From the UHGV virus genome UHGV-0144373: a DNA stretch of 64,000 nt, one strand, 5' to 3'. The notes below the pieces were generated by a model. It was not told the origin of the DNA. It saw only the letters and a list, made by a program, of their open reading frames with translations, and did no database searches. Shown piece after piece: positions 3,924 to 49,696 of the stretch. Position 1 is the first letter of the stretch. Every line of letters begins with the position of its first letter. Origin of the DNA: a virus. A program made the position numbers and the translations under genes.

Positions 3924-4654
3924 AAAACTGGAACCTTCGTTGTGGAAACACTCAAAAGCAACCTTACAGTAATGAGTATTGGGAATCTTTGAAATCTCAA
4001 TCTCTGTGTATGCTTGAAGAAGCAAAAGAGCTTGTAAAAGCAATTGAAGAGAAAGACCCCATTGAGACACTGGATGCTCAGGCAGATTTGCAATATGTTC
4101 TTGACGGTTTGATTTACCTGTCACAACATGACCATAATGGTGCTATGAAAGCTGTTTGCCATAATAATGACCTGAAGTACACAGACGATTATGAAGAAGC
4201 TTTAAAACGTCTTGCAGACATTGAAAAGCATACTGGTCAAGAGTGTATTATCAGAATGTCAGTAGTTGATGGTAAAGAGTGGTATGCGATTGTTCGTGTA
4301 GCCGATGGGAAGGTTATGAAGCAATCGAACCTCCCTAAAGTACAGCTTGGTGAATACATTGTAGAACTTGAAAGCCAAGAACTTTTTGTGGTAGTATCTG
4401 AGACATGCGTTATCTGCAAAGGTATTGTAGGTAGCTTAAAGGATTTGGGTGTAGATGGTTTTGTAGAAGTTAATCCAATTACCTCTAAAGCAGATAAAGA
4501 CTTCTGTAAAGAGAATGGACTATGGATTGCAGATATTGTCTACTATGATGGTGAGCAGTTCCATGTAACCTCATACCCGAAACTGAATTATGATGCTAAT
4601 AACCTGAAGTGCTGGTTAAAAGGGGTTGGTTATAATGGATTCACAGAACATTAA
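3899..4654 (+). CDS. hypothetical protein with N-terminal MazG-like NTP pyrophosphohydrolase motif
   Basis: AAGGAG SD; LEEAKELVKAIEE...DAQADLQYVLDG resembles the EExxE...D metal-binding pattern of MazG-like domains. Weak. Confidence 0.3.
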   Translation: MFNSRESVKNWNLRCGNTQKQPYSNEYWESLKSQSLCMLEEAKELVKAIEEKDPIETLDAQADLQYVLDGLIYLSQHDHNGAMKAVCHNNDLKYTDDYEEALKRLADIEKHTGQECIIRMSVVDGKEWYAIVRVADGKVMKQSNLPKVQLGEYIVELESQELFVVVSETCVICKGIVGSLKDLGVDGFVEVNPITSKADKDFCKENGLWIADIVYYDGEQFHVTSYPKLNYDANNLKCWLKGVGYNGFTEH

Positions 4655-44484: not shown

Positions 44485-44561
44485 CTCTGTTTAGCTCAGC
44501 TTGGTAGAGCGTTCCGTTTGGGGCGGTAAGGCCGGAGGTTCAAGTCCTCCAACAGAGACCA
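44485..44561 (+). tRNA. tRNA-Pro (anticodon TGG)
   Basis: Cloverleaf folded by eye: acceptor CTCTGTT/AACAGAG, anticodon loop TTTGGGG, T-loop TTCAAGT, encoded CCA. Confidence 0.65.
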
Positions 44562-44568
44562 AATTAAT

Positions 44569-44646
44569 GTTCCAGTAGACAAAATGGTATAGTCACCACT
44601 CTTTCAAAGTGGATATCTGAGGGTTCAAATCCCTTCTGGAACGCCA
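44569..44646 (+). tRNA. tRNA-Glu (anticodon TTC)
   Basis: Acceptor GTTCCAG/CTGGAAC, anticodon loop CTTTCAA, T-loop TTCAAAT, CCA. Confidence 0.6.
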
Positions 44647-44653
44647 GTTTTGA

Positions 44654-44725
44654 CAGAAGACCAATTACAGCAAACTTAATCTACTCATCTGACACGAAAT
44701 CGGACAAAGAAGATATTTGGTCTGG
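44654..44725 (+). repeat. inter-tRNA structured element, CAGAAGACC...GGTCTGG family (copy 1)
   Basis: Starts CAGAAGACCAATTACAGCAA, ends TTGGTCTGG; termini complementary. Confidence 0.45.
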
Positions 44726-44737
44726 TCATTGAGAATT

Positions 44738-44813
44738 GCGGGTATAGAGAAAGGGCGTCTCACATGTCTCATTAGCATGGTATCGGCAGGTTCGACTCCT
44801 GCACCCGCCTCCA
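44738..44813 (+). tRNA. tRNA with anticodon CAT (Met, fMet or Ile2)
   Basis: Anticodon stem CATGT/GCATG, loop CTCATTA, T-arm GCAGG-TTCGACT-CCTGC, CCA; acceptor has one mismatch. Confidence 0.45.
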
Positions 44814-44819
44814 ATTTTG

Positions 44820-44880
44820 CAGAAGACCGTATTCAGCAACAAAATACTTTTTGCGGATAAAAGAAAAAACACGGTCTGGC
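44820..44880 (+). repeat. inter-tRNA structured element (copy 2)
   Basis: CAGAAGACCGTATTCAGCAA...ACGGTCTGGC. Confidence 0.45.
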
Positions 44881-44890
44881 AATGTATTAA

Positions 44891-44967
44891 GGTTAGGAAG
44901 CACATAAGGTATGTGCGGTCGCCTGTTAAGCGAATGGCACAGGGTTCGAATCCCTGACTAACCGCCA
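44891..44967 (+). tRNA. tRNA-Asn (anticodon GTT)
   Basis: D-stem GCAC/GTGC, anticodon loop CTGTTAA, T-arm CAGGG-TTCGAAT-CCCTG, CCA. Confidence 0.6.
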
Positions 44968-45036
44968 AATTTAGGAGAGAAGCGATTGCTCACCGATTTG
45001 TAAGGTGCAAGTCCTTAGCCTGAATAGAAATTAAAT

Positions 45037-45124
45037 GTGTCGTTATCCCGTAGATGGTAGCGGTGGGGACTGTAAATCCCTTGTCATTGAGACTCGGTAG
45101 GTTCGACTCCTACACGGCACACCA
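45037..45124 (+). tRNA. tRNA-Tyr (anticodon GTA), long variable arm
   Basis: Acceptor GTGTCGT/ACGGCAC, anticodon loop CTGTAAA, 15-nt variable arm, T-arm GTAGG-TTCGACT-CCTAC, CCA. Confidence 0.6.
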
Positions 45125-45129
45125 ATAAA

Positions 45130-45207
45130 GGTTATGTAGTTTAATTTGGTTAAAATACTCCCCTGTCACGGGAGATGATGAGGGTTCAAATCCCTTCGTA
45201 ACCGCCA
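45130..45207 (+). tRNA. tRNA-Asp (anticodon GTC)
   Basis: Acceptor GGTTATG/CGTAACC, anticodon stem CTCCC/GGGAG, loop CTGTCAC, CCA. Confidence 0.65.
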
Positions 45208-45268
45208 ATTTTGAGAGGGCTATTTAGCCCCTCCCTTAAAGGGTTCTTACGAGTATCCTTTAAAGGAG

Positions 45269-45341
45269 CAGAAGACCAAATACAGCAAGAACGTATGAAA
45301 TTTCAAGCCAATTTAATTTTGAAAATTTAAACTTGGTCTGG
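45269..45341 (+). repeat. inter-tRNA structured element (copy 3)
   Basis: CAGAAGACCAAATACAGCAA...ACTTGGTCTGG. Confidence 0.45.
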
Positions 45342-45354
45342 CTCAACAAATTTA

Positions 45355-45486
45355 CAGAAGACCGTTTACAGCAAAACTTAAACAATCTATTTCTCCGGTA
45401 AAGAAAAGGCGAAGGTTCGATTCCTTCACTCGGCAGATGTCGAGTTGGTGTAATGGTAGCACTTAAGATGATAAACAACGGTCTGG
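45355..45486 (+). repeat. inter-tRNA structured element (copy 4) containing tRNA-like hairpins
   Basis: CAGAAGACCGTTTACAGCAA...CGGTCTGG; inside: T-arm-like GAAGG-TTCGATT-CCTTC, acceptor-like hairpin ACTCGGC-AGAT-GTCGAGT, D-arm-like GTG-TAATGGTAG-CAC. Confidence 0.4.
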
Positions 45487-45488
45487 TA

Positions 45489-45630
45489 ATTATCTTTGTA
45501 GATAAGTTATTAAGCTTACCTGTGAGTATGCGACCACAAAGGGTGAAAGGGTAAATTCTAGATTTAAACCCAAAAAGGCACATCGCTACAGACCTTAAGC
45601 AAGTCTGGGTAGCTTATCTACAAAGATAAT
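45489..45630 (+). repeat. perfect 18-bp inverted repeat flanking a 106-nt structured segment
   Basis: ATTATCTTTGTAGATAAG (45489-45506) and its exact reverse complement CTTATCTACAAAGATAAT (45613-45630). Confidence 0.7.
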
Positions 45631-45635
45631 TTAAT

Positions 45636-45711
45636 GGAAGTGTAGCAGAATGGTGATGCGGCAGACTTTTAATCTGACAGGCGATGGGTTCGAATCCCTC
45701 CACTTCTACCA
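45636..45711 (+). tRNA. tRNA-Lys (anticodon TTT)
   Basis: Acceptor GGAAGTG/CACTTCT, anticodon loop CTTTTAA, T-loop TTCGAAT, CCA; T-stem weak. Confidence 0.5.
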
Positions 45712-45715
45712 AAAT

Positions 45716-45792
45716 GGTTCAGTCGCAGATAAGGTAATGCAAGGGTCTCATAAGCCCTATGAATGTGGGTTCGATTCCCATCTGAACCTCCA
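45716..45792 (+). tRNA. tRNA-Met (anticodon CAT)
   Basis: Acceptor GGTTCAG/CTGAACC, anticodon stem AGGGT/GCCCT, loop CTCATAA, T-arm GTGGG-TTCGATT-CCCAT, CCA. Confidence 0.6.
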
Positions 45793-45794
45793 AT

Positions 45795-45869
45795 TGTGGG
45801 TTAGCATAAATGGTAATGCAAACGGCTGATAACCGTTAGAAGAGGGTTCGATACCCTCACCTACAACCA
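45795..45869 (+). tRNA. tRNA-Ile (anticodon GAT)
   Basis: D-stem GCAT/ATGC, anticodon stem AACGG/CCGTT, loop CTGATAA, T-arm GAGGG-TTCGATA-CCCTC, CCA. Confidence 0.65.
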
Positions 45870-45884
45870 ATTTCAATAAAGTTG

Positions 45885-45913
45885 TTGACATTGAGATGTG
45901 ACTACTTTATAGT
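45885..45913 (+). promoter_or_regulatory. sigma70-like promoter inside tRNA array
   Basis: TTGACA, 17-nt spacer, TATAGT. Confidence 0.5.
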
Positions 45914-46117
45914 AACCTTAGTTTTCGTTGCGTAGCGTCTATTTTGCAAATTTAAAATAAATGCAAACGACAATGTTTTTCTGGCAGTAGCTTGATAGGC
46001 TAAACACCAGTGAGGTCTTCCAATCCCTCATCAAAGAATTTGGCGTACTCGCCCACGGTATGATTAATAAGGTGGGCATCTTTAAGGGCTTTCTAAGAGA
46101 GTCTTTAAAGATAATTA

Positions 46118-46199
46118 CGGGGCGTATCTCAGCTGTCTTCTAAACAGCCGTTAACCGAGTAAGTGGAGTATGCGGGTTCGAGTCCTGCCGCCTCGACCA
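46118..46199 (+). tRNA. atypical tRNA-like gene, anticodon TCT (Arg); D-arm apparently missing
   Basis: Acceptor CGGGGCG/CGCCTCG, perfect anticodon arm GCTGT-CTTCTAA-ACAGC, T-arm GCGGG-TTCGAGT-CCTGC, CCA; only 5 nt between position 9 and the anticodon stem, and a 23-nt variable region. Confidence 0.35.
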
Positions 46200-46342
46200 A
46201 TTTAGTTAGCAGATTACTTAGACGACCTAAGCGGGTCTTCCTGTAGGGAGGTGGTCTGTATCTCATGTTTTCCAGAACATGTAAATAATCTGAGAAGGGG
46301 CTTTACAGTGTTGAGATAATACGGTAAGCTTCGAATTATAGT

Positions 46343-46425
46343 ATGGGATGATGTTAAGACTCTAAGGCATGAGCAACGGCTTCCAACACCGTTTCAAAGG
46401 GGTTCAACTCCTCCGTCCCATGCCA
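46343..46425 (+). tRNA. tRNA, anticodon undetermined (possibly Trp, CCA)
   Basis: Acceptor ATGGGAT/GTCCCAT, T-loop TTCAACT, CCA; best anticodon hairpin AACGG/CCGTT around TTCCAAC; about 7 extra nt in the D region. Confidence 0.3.
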
Positions 46426-46438
46426 AAGTCTTATTAGG

Positions 46439-46528
46439 GGTAGGTAGCGGCTAATGGTAGCCAAACTGTCTTGAAAACAGTTGCCACTGTAGAGATACGG
46501 TGAGGGTTCGACTCCTTTACTTACCGCC
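46439..46528 (+). tRNA. tRNA-Ser (anticodon TGA), long variable arm
   Basis: Acceptor GGTAGGT/ACTTACC, anticodon stem ACTGT/ACAGT, loop CTTGAAA, about 20-nt variable arm, discriminator G. Confidence 0.6.
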
Positions 46529-46784
46529 TAATAAGATTTTAAAGCCAAGCTTCATTCGGATGTTGCTTTGGTATCCCTCGTGTATTGTCTAACACACTGA
46601 TAAATCACCTAGTAGGTGTCACGGAGAAGAGATAATATCAAGCTCTCCAAAGGTTCTAGTCACCGGATTAAACAAGACTATGCAAAGACCTTTTTAGGTC
46701 TTTTTAGAGGGCTTCTAAGGTTATTACAGCTTGTTGTGGAACCTTGTTGCTTAGGTTCTTAGAAGTTCTCTAAAAAGATTTAAT

Positions 46785-46861
46785 GCACCTATAGCCCAAC
46801 TGGTAGAGGCAGCAGACTTAGAATCTGCTCAGTGTGAGTTCGAATCTCTCTAGGTGTACCA
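46785..46861 (+). tRNA. tRNA with anticodon TAG (Leu by anticodon) but short variable arm
   Basis: Acceptor GCACCTA/TAGGTGT, anticodon stem GCAGA/TCTGC, loop CTTAGAA, 5-nt variable loop, discriminator A, CCA. Confidence 0.5.
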
Positions 46862-46868
46862 AATTAAT

Positions 46869-46944
46869 GCAGGTGTAGCAAAATGGTTATGCGGCTGACT
46901 CTTAATCAGTAAGACGATGGGTTCAATTCCCTCCACCTGTACCA
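46869..46944 (+). tRNA. tRNA-Lys (anticodon CTT)
   Basis: Paralogous to the TTT tRNA; anticodon loop CTCTTAA; T-loop TTCAATT; CCA. Confidence 0.55.
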
Positions 46945-46950
46945 AACATT

Positions 46951-47026
46951 GGGGATGTAGTTTACATGGTTAAAACATAAGTTTTGCAAACTTAAGTACA
47001 GGGTTCAATTCCCTGCTTCTCCACCA
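46951..47026 (+). tRNA. tRNA-Ala (anticodon TGC)
   Basis: G3:U70 wobble in acceptor (Ala identity element), anticodon stem TAAGT/ACTTA, loop TTTGCAA, T-arm CAGGG-TTCAATT-CCCTG, CCA. Confidence 0.65.
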
Positions 47027-47032
47027 ATTAGT

Positions 47033-47107
47033 GCATCCATAGTTTAAATGGGAAAATTACAGTCTTCCAAACTGAGGTTGAGGGTTCGATTCCCTCTGGA
47101 TGCTCCA
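47033..47107 (+). tRNA. tRNA-Gly (anticodon TCC)
   Basis: Acceptor GCATCCA/TGGATGC, anticodon loop CTTCCAA, T-arm GAGGG-TTCGATT-CCCTC, CCA. Confidence 0.6.
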
Positions 47108-47114
47108 AATTAAT

Positions 47115-47190
47115 GCTCCTATCGTATAATTGGCTATTACGGTTGCCTTGTAAGCAACTTATCAGGGTTCGAATCCTTGTGGGAGCACCA
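47115..47190 (+). tRNA. tRNA-Thr (anticodon TGT)
   Basis: Acceptor GCTCCTA/TGGGAGC, anticodon stem GTTGC/GCAAC, loop CTTGTAA, CCA. Confidence 0.65.
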
Positions 47191-47285
47191 ATTCAGAGGT
47201 CAAGTGAAAGACCGCTGGTGTCAACTGAAGACCGTAACAAATTCCACGGAGTTGAGTTAGCGGCACAACTTCAGACCTCTTTCAT

Positions 47286-47360
47286 ACTCGCTTAGTTTAT
47301 ATGGTAAAACACCACCCTTACAAGATGAAGAAAAAGGTTCAAGTCCTTTAGTGAGTACCA
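47286..47360 (+). tRNA. tRNA-Val (anticodon TAC), weak anticodon stem
   Basis: Acceptor ACTCGCT/AGTGAGT, D-stem GTTT/AAAC, loop CTTACAA with 3 of 5 stem pairs, T-arm AAAGG-TTCAAGT-CCTTT, CCA. Confidence 0.45.
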
Positions 47361-47361
47361 T

Positions 47362-47439
47362 GTTCCAGTATCCCAATTGGCAGAGGATGCAAGCTCAAAC
47401 CTTGTATTAGTGATGGTTCGAATCCGTCTTGGAACACCA
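47362..47439 (+). tRNA. tRNA with anticodon CAA (Leu by anticodon) but short variable arm
   Basis: Acceptor GTTCCAG/TTGGAAC, anticodon stem GCAAG/CTTGT, loop CTCAAAC, discriminator A, CCA. Confidence 0.5.
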
Positions 47440-47444
47440 ATTTT

Positions 47445-47520
47445 GCAGGATTAGTTCAAATGGATAGAGCAACAGTCTACGAAGCTGTTAATAGGGGTTC
47501 GAATCCCTTATCCTGCACCA
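47445..47520 (+). tRNA. tRNA-Arg (anticodon ACG)
   Basis: Acceptor GCAGGAT/ATCCTGC, anticodon loop CTACGAA, T-arm AGGGG-TTCGAAT-CCCTT, CCA. Confidence 0.65.
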
Positions 47521-47538
47521 GACAAGTAAGAGGAATTT

Positions 47539-47781
47539 ATGCAAACATTAATCGTCATTGAACATGAAAATTCCAATAGTATTGAGTTTGTAAGGGTTCC
47601 CACTATAGATACCCACATTTTCTTGAAAGTCGGATGGGGATGTGACCCAATAAAAGTAGAAAATTTTATTGGTCATTACTTTGGTGGAAGACAACTTAAA
47701 AGCGTCAATTTTGAGACAATGTTACCAGAAAACTCAGAAACAAATAATAATGTTTATCTCCTTACGAGGATTAGACAATGA
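47539..47781 (+). CDS. hypothetical protein embedded in tRNA array
   Basis: 80 aa; AAGAGGA SD. Confidence 0.4.
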   Translation: MQTLIVIEHENSNSIEFVRVPTIDTHIFLKVGWGCDPIKVENFIGHYFGGRQLKSVNFETMLPENSETNNNVYLLTRIRQ

Positions 47782-48335
47782 GATATCTGAAGTATGCTTC
47801 ATGGATTTTCCTAGCTTTGTTAGAACCATTGGCAGCAACCTTAGCAGTTATCTTAGCACCCTTTGTAGTCCCATTCTACAGTGAGAAGAAAGGTCATCTA
47901 CCTTTTGGATTCAGATGGATGGAGACATATGACAACCCAATTGATGGTGATAAAGGTCATGTCGAACGATGGGCTAAGATTAGAAAGATTGGTAAGCTTG
48001 GTGTCTATATGCAGAGAGTTGGTTGGCTCTGGAGAAACAAAGCTTATAACTTCTCTTACCATGTGTTAGGAAGAGATGTAAAAGATGTTACTAAGTGGAA
48101 AGGTAATATCAATGTAAGTTCTAACCCTGAAGATAATCAGACAGGTTATCTCCTAATGTGGAACAGTAATGCTTGGGGATTATTCGCTTTTATCCCGTCA
48201 ATTAAAGTCTTTGGTAATCAATTCTACTGGAGAATTTATGTTGGGTGGAAACTTAAAAGTGTTGTCCCAAAAGAAAGAGCATTCTCAAGGGAAAGAGTTA
48301 TGTTGGCATTCTTTATTCATCCACTGAGAAAGTAA
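47778..48335 (+). CDS. hypothetical membrane-associated protein embedded in tRNA array
   Basis: 185 aa; hydrophobic N-terminus; ATGA overlap with upstream ORF. Confidence 0.4.
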   Translation: MRYLKYASWIFLALLEPLAATLAVILAPFVVPFYSEKKGHLPFGFRWMETYDNPIDGDKGHVERWAKIRKIGKLGVYMQRVGWLWRNKAYNFSYHVLGRDVKDVTKWKGNINVSSNPEDNQTGYLLMWNSNAWGLFAFIPSIKVFGNQFYWRIYVGWKLKSVVPKERAFSRERVMLAFFIHPLRK

Positions 48336-48343
48336 AGATTTAA

Positions 48344-48419
48344 AGGGGATTAGTTTACAAGGTTAAAACCTCGGTCTTTGAAATCGAAGAAGTTGGTTCA
48401 ATTCCAACATCCCCCGCCA
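48344..48419 (+). tRNA. tRNA-Gln (anticodon TTG)
   Basis: Acceptor AGGGGAT/ATCCCCC (1:72 mismatch), anticodon loop CTTTGAA, T-arm GTTGG-TTCAATT-CCAAC, CCA. Confidence 0.55.
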
Positions 48420-48421
48420 AT

Positions 48422-48500
48422 GCTCCATTACTCCAATTGGCAGAGAGGCCAGACTTAAAATCTGTGTTATGTATCGGTTCGAATCCGATATGGAGTACCA
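48422..48500 (+). tRNA. tRNA with anticodon TAA (Leu by anticodon) but short variable arm
   Basis: Acceptor GCTCCAT/ATGGAGT, anticodon loop CTTAAAA, T-arm ATCGG-TTCGAAT-CCGAT, discriminator A, CCA. Confidence 0.5.
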
Positions 48501-48505
48501 AATTT

Positions 48506-48581
48506 AGCGGTATAGCATAACTGGCAATGCAGCAGCCTCTGAAGCTGTCCTATTAAGGTTCAAATCCTTATGCCGCTGCCA
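48506..48581 (+). tRNA. tRNA-Gln (anticodon CTG)
   Basis: Acceptor AGCGGTA/TGCCGCT, anticodon stem GCAGC/GCTGT, loop CTCTGAA, T-arm TAAGG-TTCAAAT-CCTTA, CCA. Confidence 0.6.
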
Positions 48582-48612
48582 CTTCTAAGGATTCTTGCGA
48601 GAGTCCTTAAAT

Positions 48613-48688
48613 GTGGCCTTATCATAAACGGTAATGACCCATGCTGTGAACATGGTCTATACGGGTTCAAATCCCGTAGGTCACCCCA
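48613..48688 (+). tRNA. tRNA-His (anticodon GTG)
   Basis: Acceptor GTGGCCT/AGGTCAC, anticodon stem CCATG/CATGG, loop CTGTGAA, discriminator C, CCA. Confidence 0.65.
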
Positions 48689-48693
48689 ATTTA

Positions 48694-48770
48694 TAGTCCA
48701 AGTAGCTTATATGGTTAAAGCGCGTGTCTGAAAAACATGAGAAGAGGGTTCAAATCCCACTGGACTACCA
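48694..48770 (+). tRNA. tRNA-Phe (anticodon GAA)
   Basis: D-stem GCTT/AAGC, anticodon stem CGTGT/ACATG, loop CTGAAAA, T-loop TTCAAAT; exact 5' boundary ambiguous. Confidence 0.5.
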
Positions 48771-48786
48771 ATTTCAAAGGTGCTTA

Positions 48787-49521
48787 ATGAAAGAGATGAC
48801 AGAACAAGGTAAGGAGATTTTTAATCTCTTAAAAACCGGTAAAGGGTTCTCTAACCCGCTTATTACTGGTGCAGCAGTTCTCGGTGGAACCGTAGCTGCT
48901 TCTACATCACTTGTAAGCTCTATTAGTTCTGTAACAGACCCTACAATGAAGGAGAAACTTGTTGCTGCTGGGCTTACAACAGTCCTTCTAAACAGCTTTA
49001 CAACAAGCCTTACAAGCACTACAGCAACTACTAAAACTCTGACAGACTACGGTCAAAAGTCTATTGATGAGTTTTCATCACGTATGCAGGTAGCAAAGGG
49101 GTATTCCAATGTTATGGGTGCAGCAGGAGAACAAGTTGGTTGTACACCATTCAGTGGTATCATGGGTGTTGCTACAGAGTATGGTCAAAAAGCTATTGAC
49201 ATGATAAACAGTACACTAGATAGTGTTAATGGTGTGTTAAGTGACTTACAAGATGCTATTGATAAGGGTCTTGATACTGTTTCTGATTTAGCTAACCAAG
49301 CTGTCAGTAAGATTAATGAAGGTATCTCAAAGATTACAGCTTATGCAGATGAAGTTGTGCAGATGATTGAAGAAGAAGCTGCCCTTATTGCAGAGTACCT
49401 TAAAACGAATATCAATGGGTTCTTAGCAGGTATCTTACCAGACTGGTTTGATGATGCTTGTAAAACTGGTGTAATTGATGCTATTGCAACACCAGAAATG
49501 AAGAACGCATTACAGAAATAA
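48787..49521 (+). CDS. hypothetical Ser/Thr-rich protein
   Basis: ATG48787 after AAAGG; the track start at 48724 (GTG) would overlap tRNA-Phe. Confidence 0.4.
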   Translation: MKEMTEQGKEIFNLLKTGKGFSNPLITGAAVLGGTVAASTSLVSSISSVTDPTMKEKLVAAGLTTVLLNSFTTSLTSTTATTKTLTDYGQKSIDEFSSRMQVAKGYSNVMGAAGEQVGCTPFSGIMGVATEYGQKAIDMINSTLDSVNGVLSDLQDAIDKGLDTVSDLANQAVSKINEGISKITAYADEVVQMIEEEAALIAEYLKTNINGFLAGILPDWFDDACKTGVIDAIATPEMKNALQK

Positions 49522-49523
49522 AT

Positions 49524-49616
49524 GGAAGATTAACCCTAAAAGGTAAGGGAGCAGTTTGCTAAACTGCCAGTAGCTGAGAAATCGGTGTACCAGTTCAAGT
49601 CTGGTATCTTCCTCCA
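49524..49616 (+). tRNA. tRNA-Ser (anticodon GCT), long variable arm
   Basis: Acceptor GGAAGAT/ATCTTCC, anticodon stem GCAGT/ACTGC, loop TTGCTAA, 21-nt variable arm, T-arm ACCAG-TTCAAGT-CTGGT, CCA. Confidence 0.6.
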
Positions 49617-49620
49617 ATTT

Positions 49621-49696
49621 GAATCCGTGACAGAAATGGCTATGTGCCTGTCTGCAAAACAGGTTTATAAGGGTTTGAGTCCCTTCGGATTCTCCA
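49621..49696 (+). tRNA. tRNA-Cys (anticodon GCA)
   Basis: Acceptor GAATCCG/CGGATTC, anticodon stem CCTGT/ACAGG, loop CTGCAAA, non-canonical T-loop TTTGAGT, CCA. Confidence 0.5.

What the first reader, a model, noticed from the sequence alone, without database searches (positions are those of the whole stretch)
46118..46199. tRNA-like gene with a canonical Arg(TCT) anticodon arm but no room for a D-arm
Acceptor stem, T-arm and encoded CCA are canonical and the anticodon hairpin is perfect, yet only 5 nt separate position 9 from the anticodon stem while 23 nt lie between the anticodon stem and T-stem. It may be a D-arm-deleted pseudogene, a non-canonical tRNA, or my fold is wrong.
Basis: seen in the sequence. 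Interest (0 to 1): 0.45.

Follow-up and report, generated by a model that had tools for sequence, protein, structure and literature searches.

The report
Rewired arginine tRNA of phages
This is not a broken tRNA gene but one member of a widespread, phage-only family of arginine tRNAs whose D-arm is built from two separated pieces of the chain, a layout that standard tRNA finders miss and that I could not find described.

Summary
Window 46118-46199 (+) has a 7-bp acceptor stem, a T-arm, an encoded CCA and a perfect UCU anticodon arm. Only 5 nt lie before that arm and 23 nt after it. ARAGORN never calls it. Rfam tRNA reaches 31.2 bits only in a sensitive search.

It is not a pseudogene. Pattern scans recovered 138 distinct relatives from phage and metagenome contigs, and almost none from 185,579 bacterial genomes. 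All helices covary. Nt 11-13 of the "5-nt linker" always pair with the 3 nt just before UAAnnGG in the "23-nt variable region" (11 pair combinations, 138/138 paired). That segment reads like a D-loop (A14 A15 n n G18 G19 A20). I read this as a D stem and loop with changed chain connectivity.

137/138 anticodons are arginine (UCU, CCU, ACG, UCG). In sister Felix O1-like phages the same slot, with the same flanks, holds a canonical 77-nt tRNA-Arg(UCU) (113 versus 102 records). tRNA clusters that carry the rewired gene nearly always lack a canonical Arg(UCU). AGA makes up 37% of this phage's Arg codons.

Best reading: a functional, structurally novel tRNA-Arg. Expression and charging are untested.

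The parts
46118..46124 (+). Acceptor stem, 5' strand (CGGGGCG). It pairs with 46189-46195.
   Evidence: Seven pairs, 99.5% of cells paired across 53 relatives, and all seven pairs show changes on both sides.
46125..46127 (+). U8 A9 U10 connector, invariant in the family.
   Evidence: Invariant columns T8 A9 T10 in alignment A1.
46128..46130 (+). C11 U12 C13: one strand of the D-stem-like helix. It runs straight on through A14 (46131) into the anticodon stem, as the 3' strand of a normal D stem does through nt 26.
   Evidence: It pairs with 46157-46159. Pair 12:41 is UA 40 / AU 9 / GC 4, and pair 13:40 is CG 47 / GC 3 / UA 3, with none unpaired. In the larger set there are 11 combinations and 138/138 are paired.
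46132..46148 (+). Anticodon arm: stem GCUGU/ACAGC, loop CUUCUAA, anticodon UCU at 46139-46141.
   Evidence: All five stem pairs covary. Loops across the family carry UCU, CCU, ACG or UCG in 137 of 138 members.
46149..46156 (+). Linker CGUUAACC, an 8-nt bulge between the anticodon stem and the second strand of the D-like helix. C-R-U-U-A-A is near-invariant; its function is unexplained.
   Evidence: Invariant columns C32 T34 T35 A36 A37. Linker variants are listed.
46157..46159 (+). G40 A41 G42: second strand of the D-stem-like helix.
   Evidence: Covaries with 46128-46130. Sliding the partner by 1-3 columns drops pairing from 100% to 8-40%.
46160..46171 (+). UAAGUGGAGUAU: a D-loop-like segment (A14 A15 n16 n17 G18 G19 A20 equivalents at 46161-46167), followed by GUAU leading into the T stem (U at 46171 = the position-48 equivalent).
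   Evidence: Only the two 'n' positions vary. The consensus AAUUGGA equals the D-loop of the canonical tRNA-Arg(UCU) of phage Andreotti (AAUUGGAUA). Length variants insert just after GGA, as in normal D-loops (L071, L075, L056b). The role in tertiary structure is inferred.
46172..46188 (+). T-arm: GCGGG / UUCGAGU / CCUGC.
   Evidence: 98.9% of cells are paired, and three pairs show double changes.
46189..46199 (+). Acceptor stem 3' strand CGCCUCG, discriminator A (46196), encoded CCA (46197-46199).
   Evidence: Discriminator across the family: G 81, A 49, T 6, C 2. CCA is encoded in 104 of 138 members.
45885..45913 (+). Promoter-like site TTGACA-N17-TATAGT. It could start the transcript that carries the upstream tmRNA-like element and this tRNA (context only; inferred).
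   Evidence: It matches 11 of 12 consensus positions, and no terminator-like site lies between it and the tRNA.

Best explanation
The locus encodes a working but structurally non-canonical arginine tRNA (anticodon UCU, reading AGA and probably AGG).

Shown:
- The RNA has four covarying helices: a 7-bp acceptor stem, a 5-bp T stem, a 5-bp anticodon stem, and a 3-bp (sometimes 4-bp) helix between nt 11-13 and nt 40-42.

Inferred (structure):
- The fourth helix is the D stem with changed connectivity. The strand that follows U8 A9 runs directly into the anticodon stem, which is the role of the normal 3' D strand plus nt 26.
- The partner strand comes after the anticodon arm. It is followed by a D-loop-like run, A14 A15 n n G18 G19 A20.
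- That run can dock on the T-loop and then enters the T stem through a U at the position-48 place.
- In effect the D/anticodon domain is circularly permuted inside an otherwise normal tRNA.
- The stack of anticodon stem (5) + 14:39 + 3 pairs + a possible U43:G51 closing pair gives about 10 layers, as in a normal anticodon/D arm. An L-shape of normal size is therefore plausible.

Inferred (function):
- The RNA is cut out of the phage tRNA operon by RNase P and 3' trimming.
- It is charged by host ArgRS through C35, U36, A73 and the A20-equivalent.
- It supplies decoding of AGA, which is frequent in the phage and rare in the host.

Why phages keep the rewired form alongside the canonical one is unknown. 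Escape from something that acts on canonical tRNA-Arg is a guess.
For: - Family and structure: 138 distinct members, with every helix covarying. For the D-like helix alone, pairing is 100% against 82% in shuffles, 19 cells have double changes against 2.9 +/- 1.3, and slid controls pair at 8-40%. The family model scores members 90-101 bits and ordinary tRNAs no more than 36.
- Arginine identity: with the anticodon left free in the scan, the loops carry UCU (127), CCU (5), ACG (3), UCG (2) and one ACU. C35 is invariant. The discriminator is G or A in 130 of 138. An A follows GG, where the ArgRS identity element A20 sits (Shimada 2001, cited in PMC12475279).
- Isoacceptor sets: one contig (L154) holds three rewired isoacceptors (ACG, CCU, UCU). 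L056 holds CCU plus a divergent UCU copy.
- Orthologous slot: phage Andreotti has a canonical 77-nt tRNA-Arg(tct) between the same flanks. 113 records carry the canonical cassette and 102 carry the rewired one.
- Complementary distribution: of 35 loci with the rewired UCU gene and at least 15 other tRNAs, only 2 also have a canonical Arg(tct). Other common tRNAs are present in 26-34 of the 35.
- Demand: AGA is 36.9% of Arg codons (15.0 per 1000) in the window's long ORFs, against 5.1% in E. coli O157:H7 (PMC3606486).
- Setting: it lies in a same-strand array of 25 tRNAs. In phage 121Q it sits 4 nt after tRNA-Ser.
Against: - There are no expression, processing or aminoacylation data.
- RNAalifold recovers only three arms, not the 3-bp helix.
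- The proposed structure evaluates at -21.0 kcal/mol against an MFE of -24.0 for a fold that breaks the anticodon stem. The single-sequence z-score is only -0.14.
- The D-loop-like positions are invariant, so their tertiary roles cannot be tested by covariation. One variant (L213) changes the predicted 15:48 partners together, but to G:G.
- The invariant CGUUAA bulge has no place in the model.
- Four loci carry both a canonical and a rewired Arg(UCU).
- Many loci are near-identical Felix-like contigs, so counts of loci and records overstate the number of independent cases.
Confidence: 0.7

Rival explanations
1. A tRNA-Arg mimic that is not used in translation. For example, it could be a decoy or inhibitor for a host enzyme that recognises tRNA-Arg (an anticodon nuclease of the colicin D type, ArgRS, or a modification enzyme), or a regulatory RNA. 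It would keep tRNA-Arg features only to be recognised.
For: The anticodon loop is strongly conserved, as is an unexplained invariant CGUUAA bulge. Four loci carry it together with a canonical Arg(UCU). The roughly 1:1 polymorphism with the canonical allele, and its spread across unrelated phage families, resemble defence/counter-defence dynamics. Phage tRNAs are known to counter tRNA-cleaving defences (Azam 2024, cited in PMC12475279).
Against: A decoy would not need a full acceptor/T minihelix with an encoded CCA and an R73 discriminator. It would not need to come as sets of different Arg anticodons in one phage (L154, L056). It would not need to replace the canonical gene in the same slot, nor to be mutually exclusive with it in 33 of 35 large clusters.
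Confidence: 0.17
2. The tRNA-like half of an unusual phage tmRNA. It would be charged with alanine through G3:U70 and work with the tag-like reading frame (ANDNVFLAVA) that lies 120 nt upstream.
For: The window copy has G2:C71, G3:U70, G4:C69 and A73. Rfam tmRNA partly matches 45927-46116 (16 bits, E 1.9e-4), and a tag-like ORF is present. tmRNA tRNA-like domains also lack a normal D-arm. A TLD-only tmRNA is known in mycobacteriophage DS6A (PMC4131195).
Against: G3:U70 occurs in only 9 of 138 members. The family has a conserved Arg anticodon arm, which tmRNA lacks. The two modules occur separately in most phages. In sister phages the slot after the tag-like element holds an ordinary tRNA-Arg. 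Both acceptor strands lie downstream of the tag, an order that is neither standard nor permuted tmRNA. ARAGORN finds no tmRNA.
Confidence: 0.03
3. A decaying tRNA-Arg(UCU) pseudogene that lost its D-arm and gained an insertion.
For: Standard finders reject it or call it 'tRNA-OTHER' or 'tRNA-Leu(taa)'. The single-sequence fold is no better than that of shuffled sequence.
Against: 138 distinct members come from unrelated phages and many environments. All stems have compensatory changes, and the 'defective' regions are near-invariant. This is the opposite of decay.
Confidence: 0.01

Closest known systems
Canonical bacterial and phage tRNA-Arg(UCU) (Rfam RF00005), e.g. the 77-nt gene in the same slot of Escherichia phage Andreotti
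   Same: A 7/5 acceptor/T minihelix, discriminator R73, encoded CCA, the anticodon loop CUUCUAA, a T-arm of the same type, a U8 A9 start, and the D-loop motif AAUUGGA. The genomic slot and flanks are the same.
   Different: There is no D hairpin between nt 9 and nt 26. The D-stem-like helix is made by nt 11-13 and a strand placed after the anticodon arm. An 8-nt bulge with an invariant CGUUAA is present, and the D-loop-like run leads directly into the T stem. The family model gives the canonical gene only 13 bits.
D-armless mitochondrial tRNAs (metazoan tRNA-Ser(AGY/AGN), nematode armless tRNAs) - from my own knowledge
   Same: No D hairpin at the usual place, and a short connector between the acceptor and anticodon stems. 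By coincidence they also read AGN codons.
   Different: Those tRNAs have lost the D-loop/T-loop contact and are short. This RNA keeps a covarying D-like helix and a D-loop-like G18 G19 run, is longer than normal (82 nt with CCA), and would work with a bacterial translation system. ARAGORN's mitochondrial mode does not call it.
tmRNA tRNA-like domain, including the TLD-only gene of mycobacteriophage DS6A (PMC4131195)
   Same: An acceptor/T minihelix with CCA and a reduced D region. A helix closes between the segment after the acceptor 5' strand and a segment before the T-arm. It is phage-borne.
   Different: It has a true anticodon arm with Arg anticodons. G3:U70 is not a family trait (9 of 138). 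No reading frame lies between the acceptor strands.
Circularly permuted tRNA genes of Cyanidioschyzon merolae (cf. PMC3728597)
   Same: The idea that tRNA segments can be reordered in the gene.
   Different: In those genes the whole gene is permuted and processing restores a canonical tRNA. Here the acceptor strands are in the normal order, and the mature RNA itself would have an internally permuted D/anticodon domain.
Irregular cloverleaf tRNAs (8/4 and 9/3 allo-tRNAs, phage 8/4 tRNA-Ser/His; Mukai et al., PMC5389517)
   Same: A precedent for non-standard tRNA architectures that sit in phage tRNA clusters and were found by sequence mining.
   Different: Those change the split between acceptor and T stems. 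This family keeps 7/5 and changes the D region.

Membership tests
Canonical cloverleaf tRNA (Rfam RF00005) | 7-bp acceptor stem, discriminator, 3' CCA | tested here: met
   The 7 acceptor pairs are 46118-46124 with 46189-46195, followed by A and CCA. All 7 pairs covary.
Canonical cloverleaf tRNA (Rfam RF00005) | 5-bp T stem with a 7-nt UUCRANY loop | tested here: met
   GCGGG/UUCGAGU/CCUGC; 98.9% of cells are paired.
Canonical cloverleaf tRNA (Rfam RF00005) | 5-bp anticodon stem, 7-nt loop with U33 and purine 37 | tested here: met
   GCUGU-CUUCUAA-ACAGC; all 5 pairs covary.
Canonical cloverleaf tRNA (Rfam RF00005) | D hairpin (stem-loop-stem) between nt 9 and nt 26 | tested here: not met
   Only UCUCA lies there. 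Rfam aligns it with the D-arm deleted. The D-like helix uses a strand located after the anticodon arm.
Canonical cloverleaf tRNA (Rfam RF00005) | Reaches the detection thresholds of standard tools | tested here: inconclusive
   ARAGORN gives no call in any mode tried. Rfam gives 31.2 bits against a gathering score of 29 in the sensitive search, but the hit is absent from the default whole-window run.
Arginine tRNA (E. coli-type ArgRS identity set: A20, C35, U36/G36, A/G73) | C35 and U36 or G36 in the anticodon | tested here: met
   The window copy has UCU. 137 of 138 family members have UCU, CCU, ACG or UCG.
Arginine tRNA (E. coli-type ArgRS identity set: A20, C35, U36/G36, A/G73) | A or G at position 73 | tested here: met
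   A at 46196; across the family G 81 and A 49 of 138.
Arginine tRNA (E. coli-type ArgRS identity set: A20, C35, U36/G36, A/G73) | A20 in the D-loop | tested here: inconclusive
   An invariant A (46167) follows the GG of the D-loop-like run, as in the canonical AAUUGGAUA. The equivalence in 3D is inferred.
Arginine tRNA (E. coli-type ArgRS identity set: A20, C35, U36/G36, A/G73) | Charged with arginine and used on the ribosome | not testable with these tools
   This needs an aminoacylation assay or tRNA-seq.
tmRNA tRNA-like domain | G3:U70 alanine identity pair conserved | tested here: not met
   It is present in the window copy but in only 9 of 138 members.
tmRNA tRNA-like domain | No anticodon arm; the mRNA-like domain lies between the two acceptor strands (or in the known permuted order) | tested here: not met
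   A covarying anticodon arm is present. The tag-like ORF lies upstream of both acceptor strands. The two modules are separable.
D-armless (mitochondrial-type) tRNA | D stem absent, replaced by an unpaired loop | tested here: not met
   Nt 11-13 pair with nt 40-42 in 138 of 138 members. ARAGORN -mt reports no D-replacement-loop tRNA here.
tRNA pseudogene | No selective constraint on structure | tested here: not met
   Covariation score 0.772 against 0.187 in shuffles. Members come from many phage groups.
Whole-gene circularly permuted tRNA | 3' half encoded upstream of the 5' half | tested here: not met
   The acceptor 5' strand, anticodon arm, T-arm and acceptor 3' strand are in the normal order.

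The most novel reading that the evidence does not exclude
This is a new architectural class of elongator tRNA: a translationally active tRNA-Arg whose D/anticodon domain is circularly permuted within the molecule yet folds into a normal L-shape. Phages keep and exchange it (perhaps by way of the neighbouring HNH homing endonucleases) because the rewired core escapes a host factor that cleaves, modifies or sequesters canonical tRNA-Arg. That would explain why only arginine isoacceptors use the scaffold, and why canonical and rewired alleles coexist about 1:1 at one locus.
Probability: 0.3. Interest if true: 0.9.

Novelty: new variant of a known kind. Interest (0 to 1): 0.8.

Why it matters
- tRNA architecture: outside organelles, the order acceptor, D hairpin, anticodon arm, variable region, T-arm is treated as essentially fixed. 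A family of at least 138 distinct phage genes that keeps all the parts but connects them differently would show that the tRNA core tolerates rewiring in a bacterial translation system.
- Synthetic biology: it would provide a natural scaffold for orthogonal tRNA design.
- Annotation: Felix O1-like, rV5-like, T5-like and jumbo phages are currently annotated as lacking tRNA-Arg(UCU), or the gene is labelled 'tRNA-OTHER', 'tRNA-Leu' or a hypothetical protein. Phage tRNA repertoires and codon-usage analyses are therefore biased for the codon (AGA) that phages supplement most often.
- Phage-host conflict: the restriction to arginine tRNAs, and the balanced polymorphism with the canonical allele, point to an unknown selective agent acting on tRNA-Arg.

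Tried and rejected
- Alternative canonical cloverleaf: ARAGORN at default, -ps, -ps80, with introns, and in mitochondrial mode found nothing at the locus. Its Arg(tct) calls on relatives L051 and L063 borrow upstream bases and have mismatched stems.
- Pairing of nt 11-13 with the second GAG (46166-46168), as in the ViennaRNA MFE: rejected. That GAG is invariant while nt 12 and 13 vary.
- A YY/GG mini-hairpin inside the 23-nt segment: rejected, because YY is AA, AU or AG in many members.
- tmRNA reading: followed because of G3:U70 and the upstream tag-like ORF, then rejected for the family (see rivals).
- ARAGORN 'ssrA' in Felix O1, as stated in two genome announcements: not reproduced on Felix O1 1-50000 or on the window.
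- RNAalifold does not predict the 3-bp helix, so the helix rests on pair counts alone.
- Search for covariation at the predicted tertiary pairs, leaving these positions free in a scan: only one variant turned up (L213).
- A shared GUUAA motif with the neighbouring tRNA-Trp-like gene suggested a common module, but that gene's pattern occurs only in Felix O1-like phages. One scan was wasted on a mis-spaced pattern.
- Nine literature searches found no description of this tRNA.

Full report
**What is there.**
The window is a Felix O1-like phage (Felixounavirus), about 99% identical to Escherichia phages EC6 and L27 over this region. Positions 44485-49696 hold 25 same-strand tRNA genes. The finding lies between tRNA-Ile(GAU) and tRNA-Ser(UGA).

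- a 7-bp acceptor stem;
- U8 A9;
- five further nucleotides (UCUCA);
- a perfect 5-bp/7-nt anticodon arm with UCU;
- 23 nucleotides;
- a normal T-arm, the acceptor 3' strand, A73 and CCA.

Detection by standard tools is poor:
- ARAGORN does not report it in any mode.
- The default Rfam run over the window omits it.
- A sensitive Rfam run gives tRNA at 31.2 bits, just above the gathering score of 29. That alignment has the D-arm deleted and a 20-nt insertion in the variable region.
- A few GenBank records label the orthologue 'tRNA-OTHER Nd_NNN' or a bare 'tRNA'. Phage 121Q calls its copy tRNA-Leu(taa). Most records leave it unannotated or lay hypothetical ORFs over it.

**It is a family, not a wreck.**
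blastn showed that the 82-nt element alone recurs at about 86% identity in unrelated phages:
- rV5-like phages of about 145 kb;
- the 348-kb phage 121Q and its relatives;
- a 337-kb Salmonella phage;
- T5-like Klebsiella phages;
- a Vibrio phage.

Pattern scans of IMG/VR and of metagenomes then gave 138 distinct sequences. In contrast, one genome from each of 185,579 bacterial and archaeal species gave only six hits, all on metagenome-assembled contigs. The element therefore belongs to phages.

Acceptor stems differ at almost every position between members but stay paired. On 53 aligned members:
- 94.9% of cells form standard pairs, against 64.9% in shuffles;
- 18 of 21 pairs show changes on both sides;
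- the covariation score is 0.772, against 0.187 in shuffles and 0.09-0.14 for slid partners.

A covariance model built from these sequences scores members 90-101 bits, one divergent copy 56.6 bits, and ordinary tRNAs at most 36 bits. The window holds exactly one member, at 100.5 bits.

**Where the D-arm went.**
The three nucleotides after G-U-A-U (C11 U12 C13; 46128-46130) covary with the three nucleotides immediately before U-A-A-n-n-G-G (G40 A41 G42; 46157-46159). The combinations seen are CUC/GAG, CGC/GCG, CAC/GUG, CAG/CUG, CUU/AAG, CCC/GGG, CGG/CCG, CGU/ACG, CAU/AUG, CGU/GCG and CUG/CAG. All 138 of 138 members are fully paired.

On the 53-sequence alignment, this helix alone is:
- 100% paired, against 82% in shuffles;
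- carrying 19 double-change cells, against 2.9 +/- 1.3;
- 8-40% paired when the partner is slid by 1-3 columns.

Neither the scans nor my filters required this pairing. A fourth pair (14:39) is Watson-Crick or G:U in 27 members and A:C or C:A in 104.

Pairing with the second GAG, which ViennaRNA prefers for the single sequence, is excluded because that GAG never changes. RNAalifold, working from energies, recovers only the three classical arms. The fourth helix therefore rests on the pair counts.

**My structural reading (inference).**
- The strand C11-C13 runs through one nucleotide into the anticodon stem. This is exactly what the 3' strand of a normal D stem does through nt 26.
- Its partner strand is followed by U-A-A-n-n-G-G-A. 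That is the D-loop consensus A14 R15 n16 n17 G18 G19 A20, and only the two 'n' positions vary.
- The family consensus AAUUGGA equals the D-loop of the canonical tRNA-Arg(UCU) of a sister phage (AAUUGGAUA).
- The rare length variants insert just after GGA, where normal D-loops vary (L071, L075, L056b).
- The chain then reaches the T stem through G-U-A-U, ending with a U where Y48 would pair with R15. U8 is invariant.

So the parts of the tRNA core are all present, but the block 'D 5' strand + D-loop' has moved from before the anticodon arm to after it. This is an internal circular permutation of the D/anticodon domain. The stack of about ten layers matches a normal anticodon/D arm.

Two things remain outside the model:
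- The invariant C-R-U-U-A-A bulge (46149-46154) is not explained.
- The tertiary contacts cannot be tested by covariation, because the positions do not vary. The single variant found (L213) changes both predicted 15:48 partners at once, to G:G.

**It behaves like the phage's tRNA-Arg.**
1. With the anticodon left free in the metagenome scan, 137 of 138 members carry arginine anticodons from both codon boxes: UCU 127, CCU 5, ACG 3, UCG 2, and one ACU. The discriminator is G or A in 130 members.
2. One contig carries three rewired genes with ACG, CCU and UCU (L154). Another carries CCU plus a divergent UCU copy, next to ordinary Arg(ACG) and Arg(CCG) (L056).
3. Phage Andreotti, of the same genus, has a canonical 77-nt tRNA-Arg(UCU) in exactly this slot, with the same flanks on both sides. 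In the phage collection 113 records carry the canonical cassette and 102 carry the rewired one.
4. Among 35 loci with a rewired UCU gene and at least 15 other tRNAs, only two also have a canonical Arg(UCU). Other common tRNAs occur in 26-34 of those 35.
5. AGA is 36.9% of arginine codons in the window's long ORFs and CGU is 38%. The phage's two arginine tRNAs would be Arg(ACG) at 47445-47520 and this gene. AGA is 5.1% of Arg codons in E. coli O157:H7 (PMC3606486).

**Rivals.**
- The tmRNA idea arose for two reasons. The window copy has G2:C71, G3:U70, G4:C69 and A73. In addition, a tmRNA-like tag frame lies just upstream. It fails for the family, for three reasons. G3:U70 is present in only 9 of 138 members. 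The Arg anticodon arm is conserved. The two elements travel separately.
- A non-translating tRNA-Arg mimic cannot be excluded without experiments. However, it fits poorly with the isoacceptor sets, with replacement of the canonical gene in the same slot, and with mutual exclusion.
- A pseudogene is excluded.

**Known or new.**
Nine full-text searches and targeted reading of the Felix O1, wV8, rV5, tmRNA-database and irregular-tRNA papers found no description of such a tRNA. The library does not cover most subscription journals, so this is not proof.

I file it as a new variant of a known kind: a tRNA, very probably tRNA-Arg, with a core topology not described for any tRNA that I know of.

**Limits.**
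- All functional steps (transcription from the promoter-like site at 45885-45913, RNase P processing, arginylation, ribosome use) are inferred.
- Counts of loci and records include many near-identical Felix O1-like genomes.
- The family was collected with patterns that fixed parts of the sequence, so its real diversity is larger than seen. The divergent copy L056b, which scores 56.6 bits, shows this.

Noticed in passing
window 45954-46078 (tag-like frame 45963-45998), behind the promoter-like site at 45885-45913: [quoted passage not shown] It has a reading frame GCA...GCU UGA UAG, encoding ANDNVFLAVA**. The peptide is conserved, with synonymous and conservative changes, across unrelated phages: lambdoid prophage ANEEMYLAVA, Kuttervirus Maynard ANDNTFLAVA, Schitoviridae UTK0001 ANDDVVLMAA, Klebsiella P5026 ANDTELLAVA, Erwinia Omen ANDAQFLAVA. 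It also occurs at 97 chromosomal and 247 plasmid places in E. coli genomes. No recognisable tRNA-like domain goes with it. Rfam and ARAGORN do not call a tmRNA in any of these. It may be an undescribed tmRNA-derived RNA and deserves its own study.
   Followed up: partly
window 46343-46425 (+): A second non-canonical tRNA-like gene, with anticodon CCA (Trp), an encoded CCA end, a C31.A39 mismatch, and an 8-nt insertion (UGUUAAGA) between nt 9 and the D stem. Only relaxed ARAGORN (-ps80, -mt) and a 22-bit Rfam tRNA-Sec hit see it. Trp is the one amino acid missing from the 25 called tRNAs. The gene is conserved in Felix O1 and Andreotti, and its pattern was found only in Felix O1-like contigs.
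   Followed up: partly
L082 (Felix O1) 2452-2533 and CDS 2504-2896; also phages warpig, Alf5, heid: HNH homing-endonuclease genes sit directly beside the tRNA-Arg slot in several relatives. In Felix O1 the annotated ORF even starts inside the rewired tRNA. This may explain cassette exchange between the canonical and rewired alleles and spread between phage families.
   Followed up: no
window 46119-46121 with 46193-46195, and 46196: The window copy carries G2:C71, G3:U70, G4:C69 and A73, which is nearly the full alanyl-tRNA synthetase identity set. This is shared by the 121Q, rV5-like and T5-like copies but by only 9 of 138 members overall. It is probably chance, but mischarging with alanine at AGA codons is not excluded.
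   Followed up: partly
L154 (metagenome contig Ga0255783_10000721) 4102-4183, 8598-8679, 11201-11282; L056 12999-13080 and 13348-13429: Single phage contigs carry two or three rewired tRNA-Arg genes with different anticodons (ACG, CCU, UCU). The second L056 copy is divergent: its linker is AGAAA instead of CGUUAA, its D-loop-like run is AAUUGGAUAG, and it scores 56.6 bits. The family is therefore broader than my patterns captured.
   Followed up: partly
L003 (E. coli lambdoid prophage, between the Q antiterminator and the holin) about 4125-4215; L209 (Maynard) about 280-425 and 807-835: T-arm-like hairpins with long closing stems lie next to the tmRNA-like tag element in other phages. They have no CCA and no standard cloverleaf. 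Their relation to the tag element is unknown.
   Followed up: no
Literature: PMC4392139, PMC4319497: Two genome announcements state that ARAGORN finds a tmRNA (ssrA) in Felix O1 and Moogle. ARAGORN 1.2.41 finds none in Felix O1 1-50000 or in this window. The earlier call may have been triggered by the tag-like element.
   Followed up: partly
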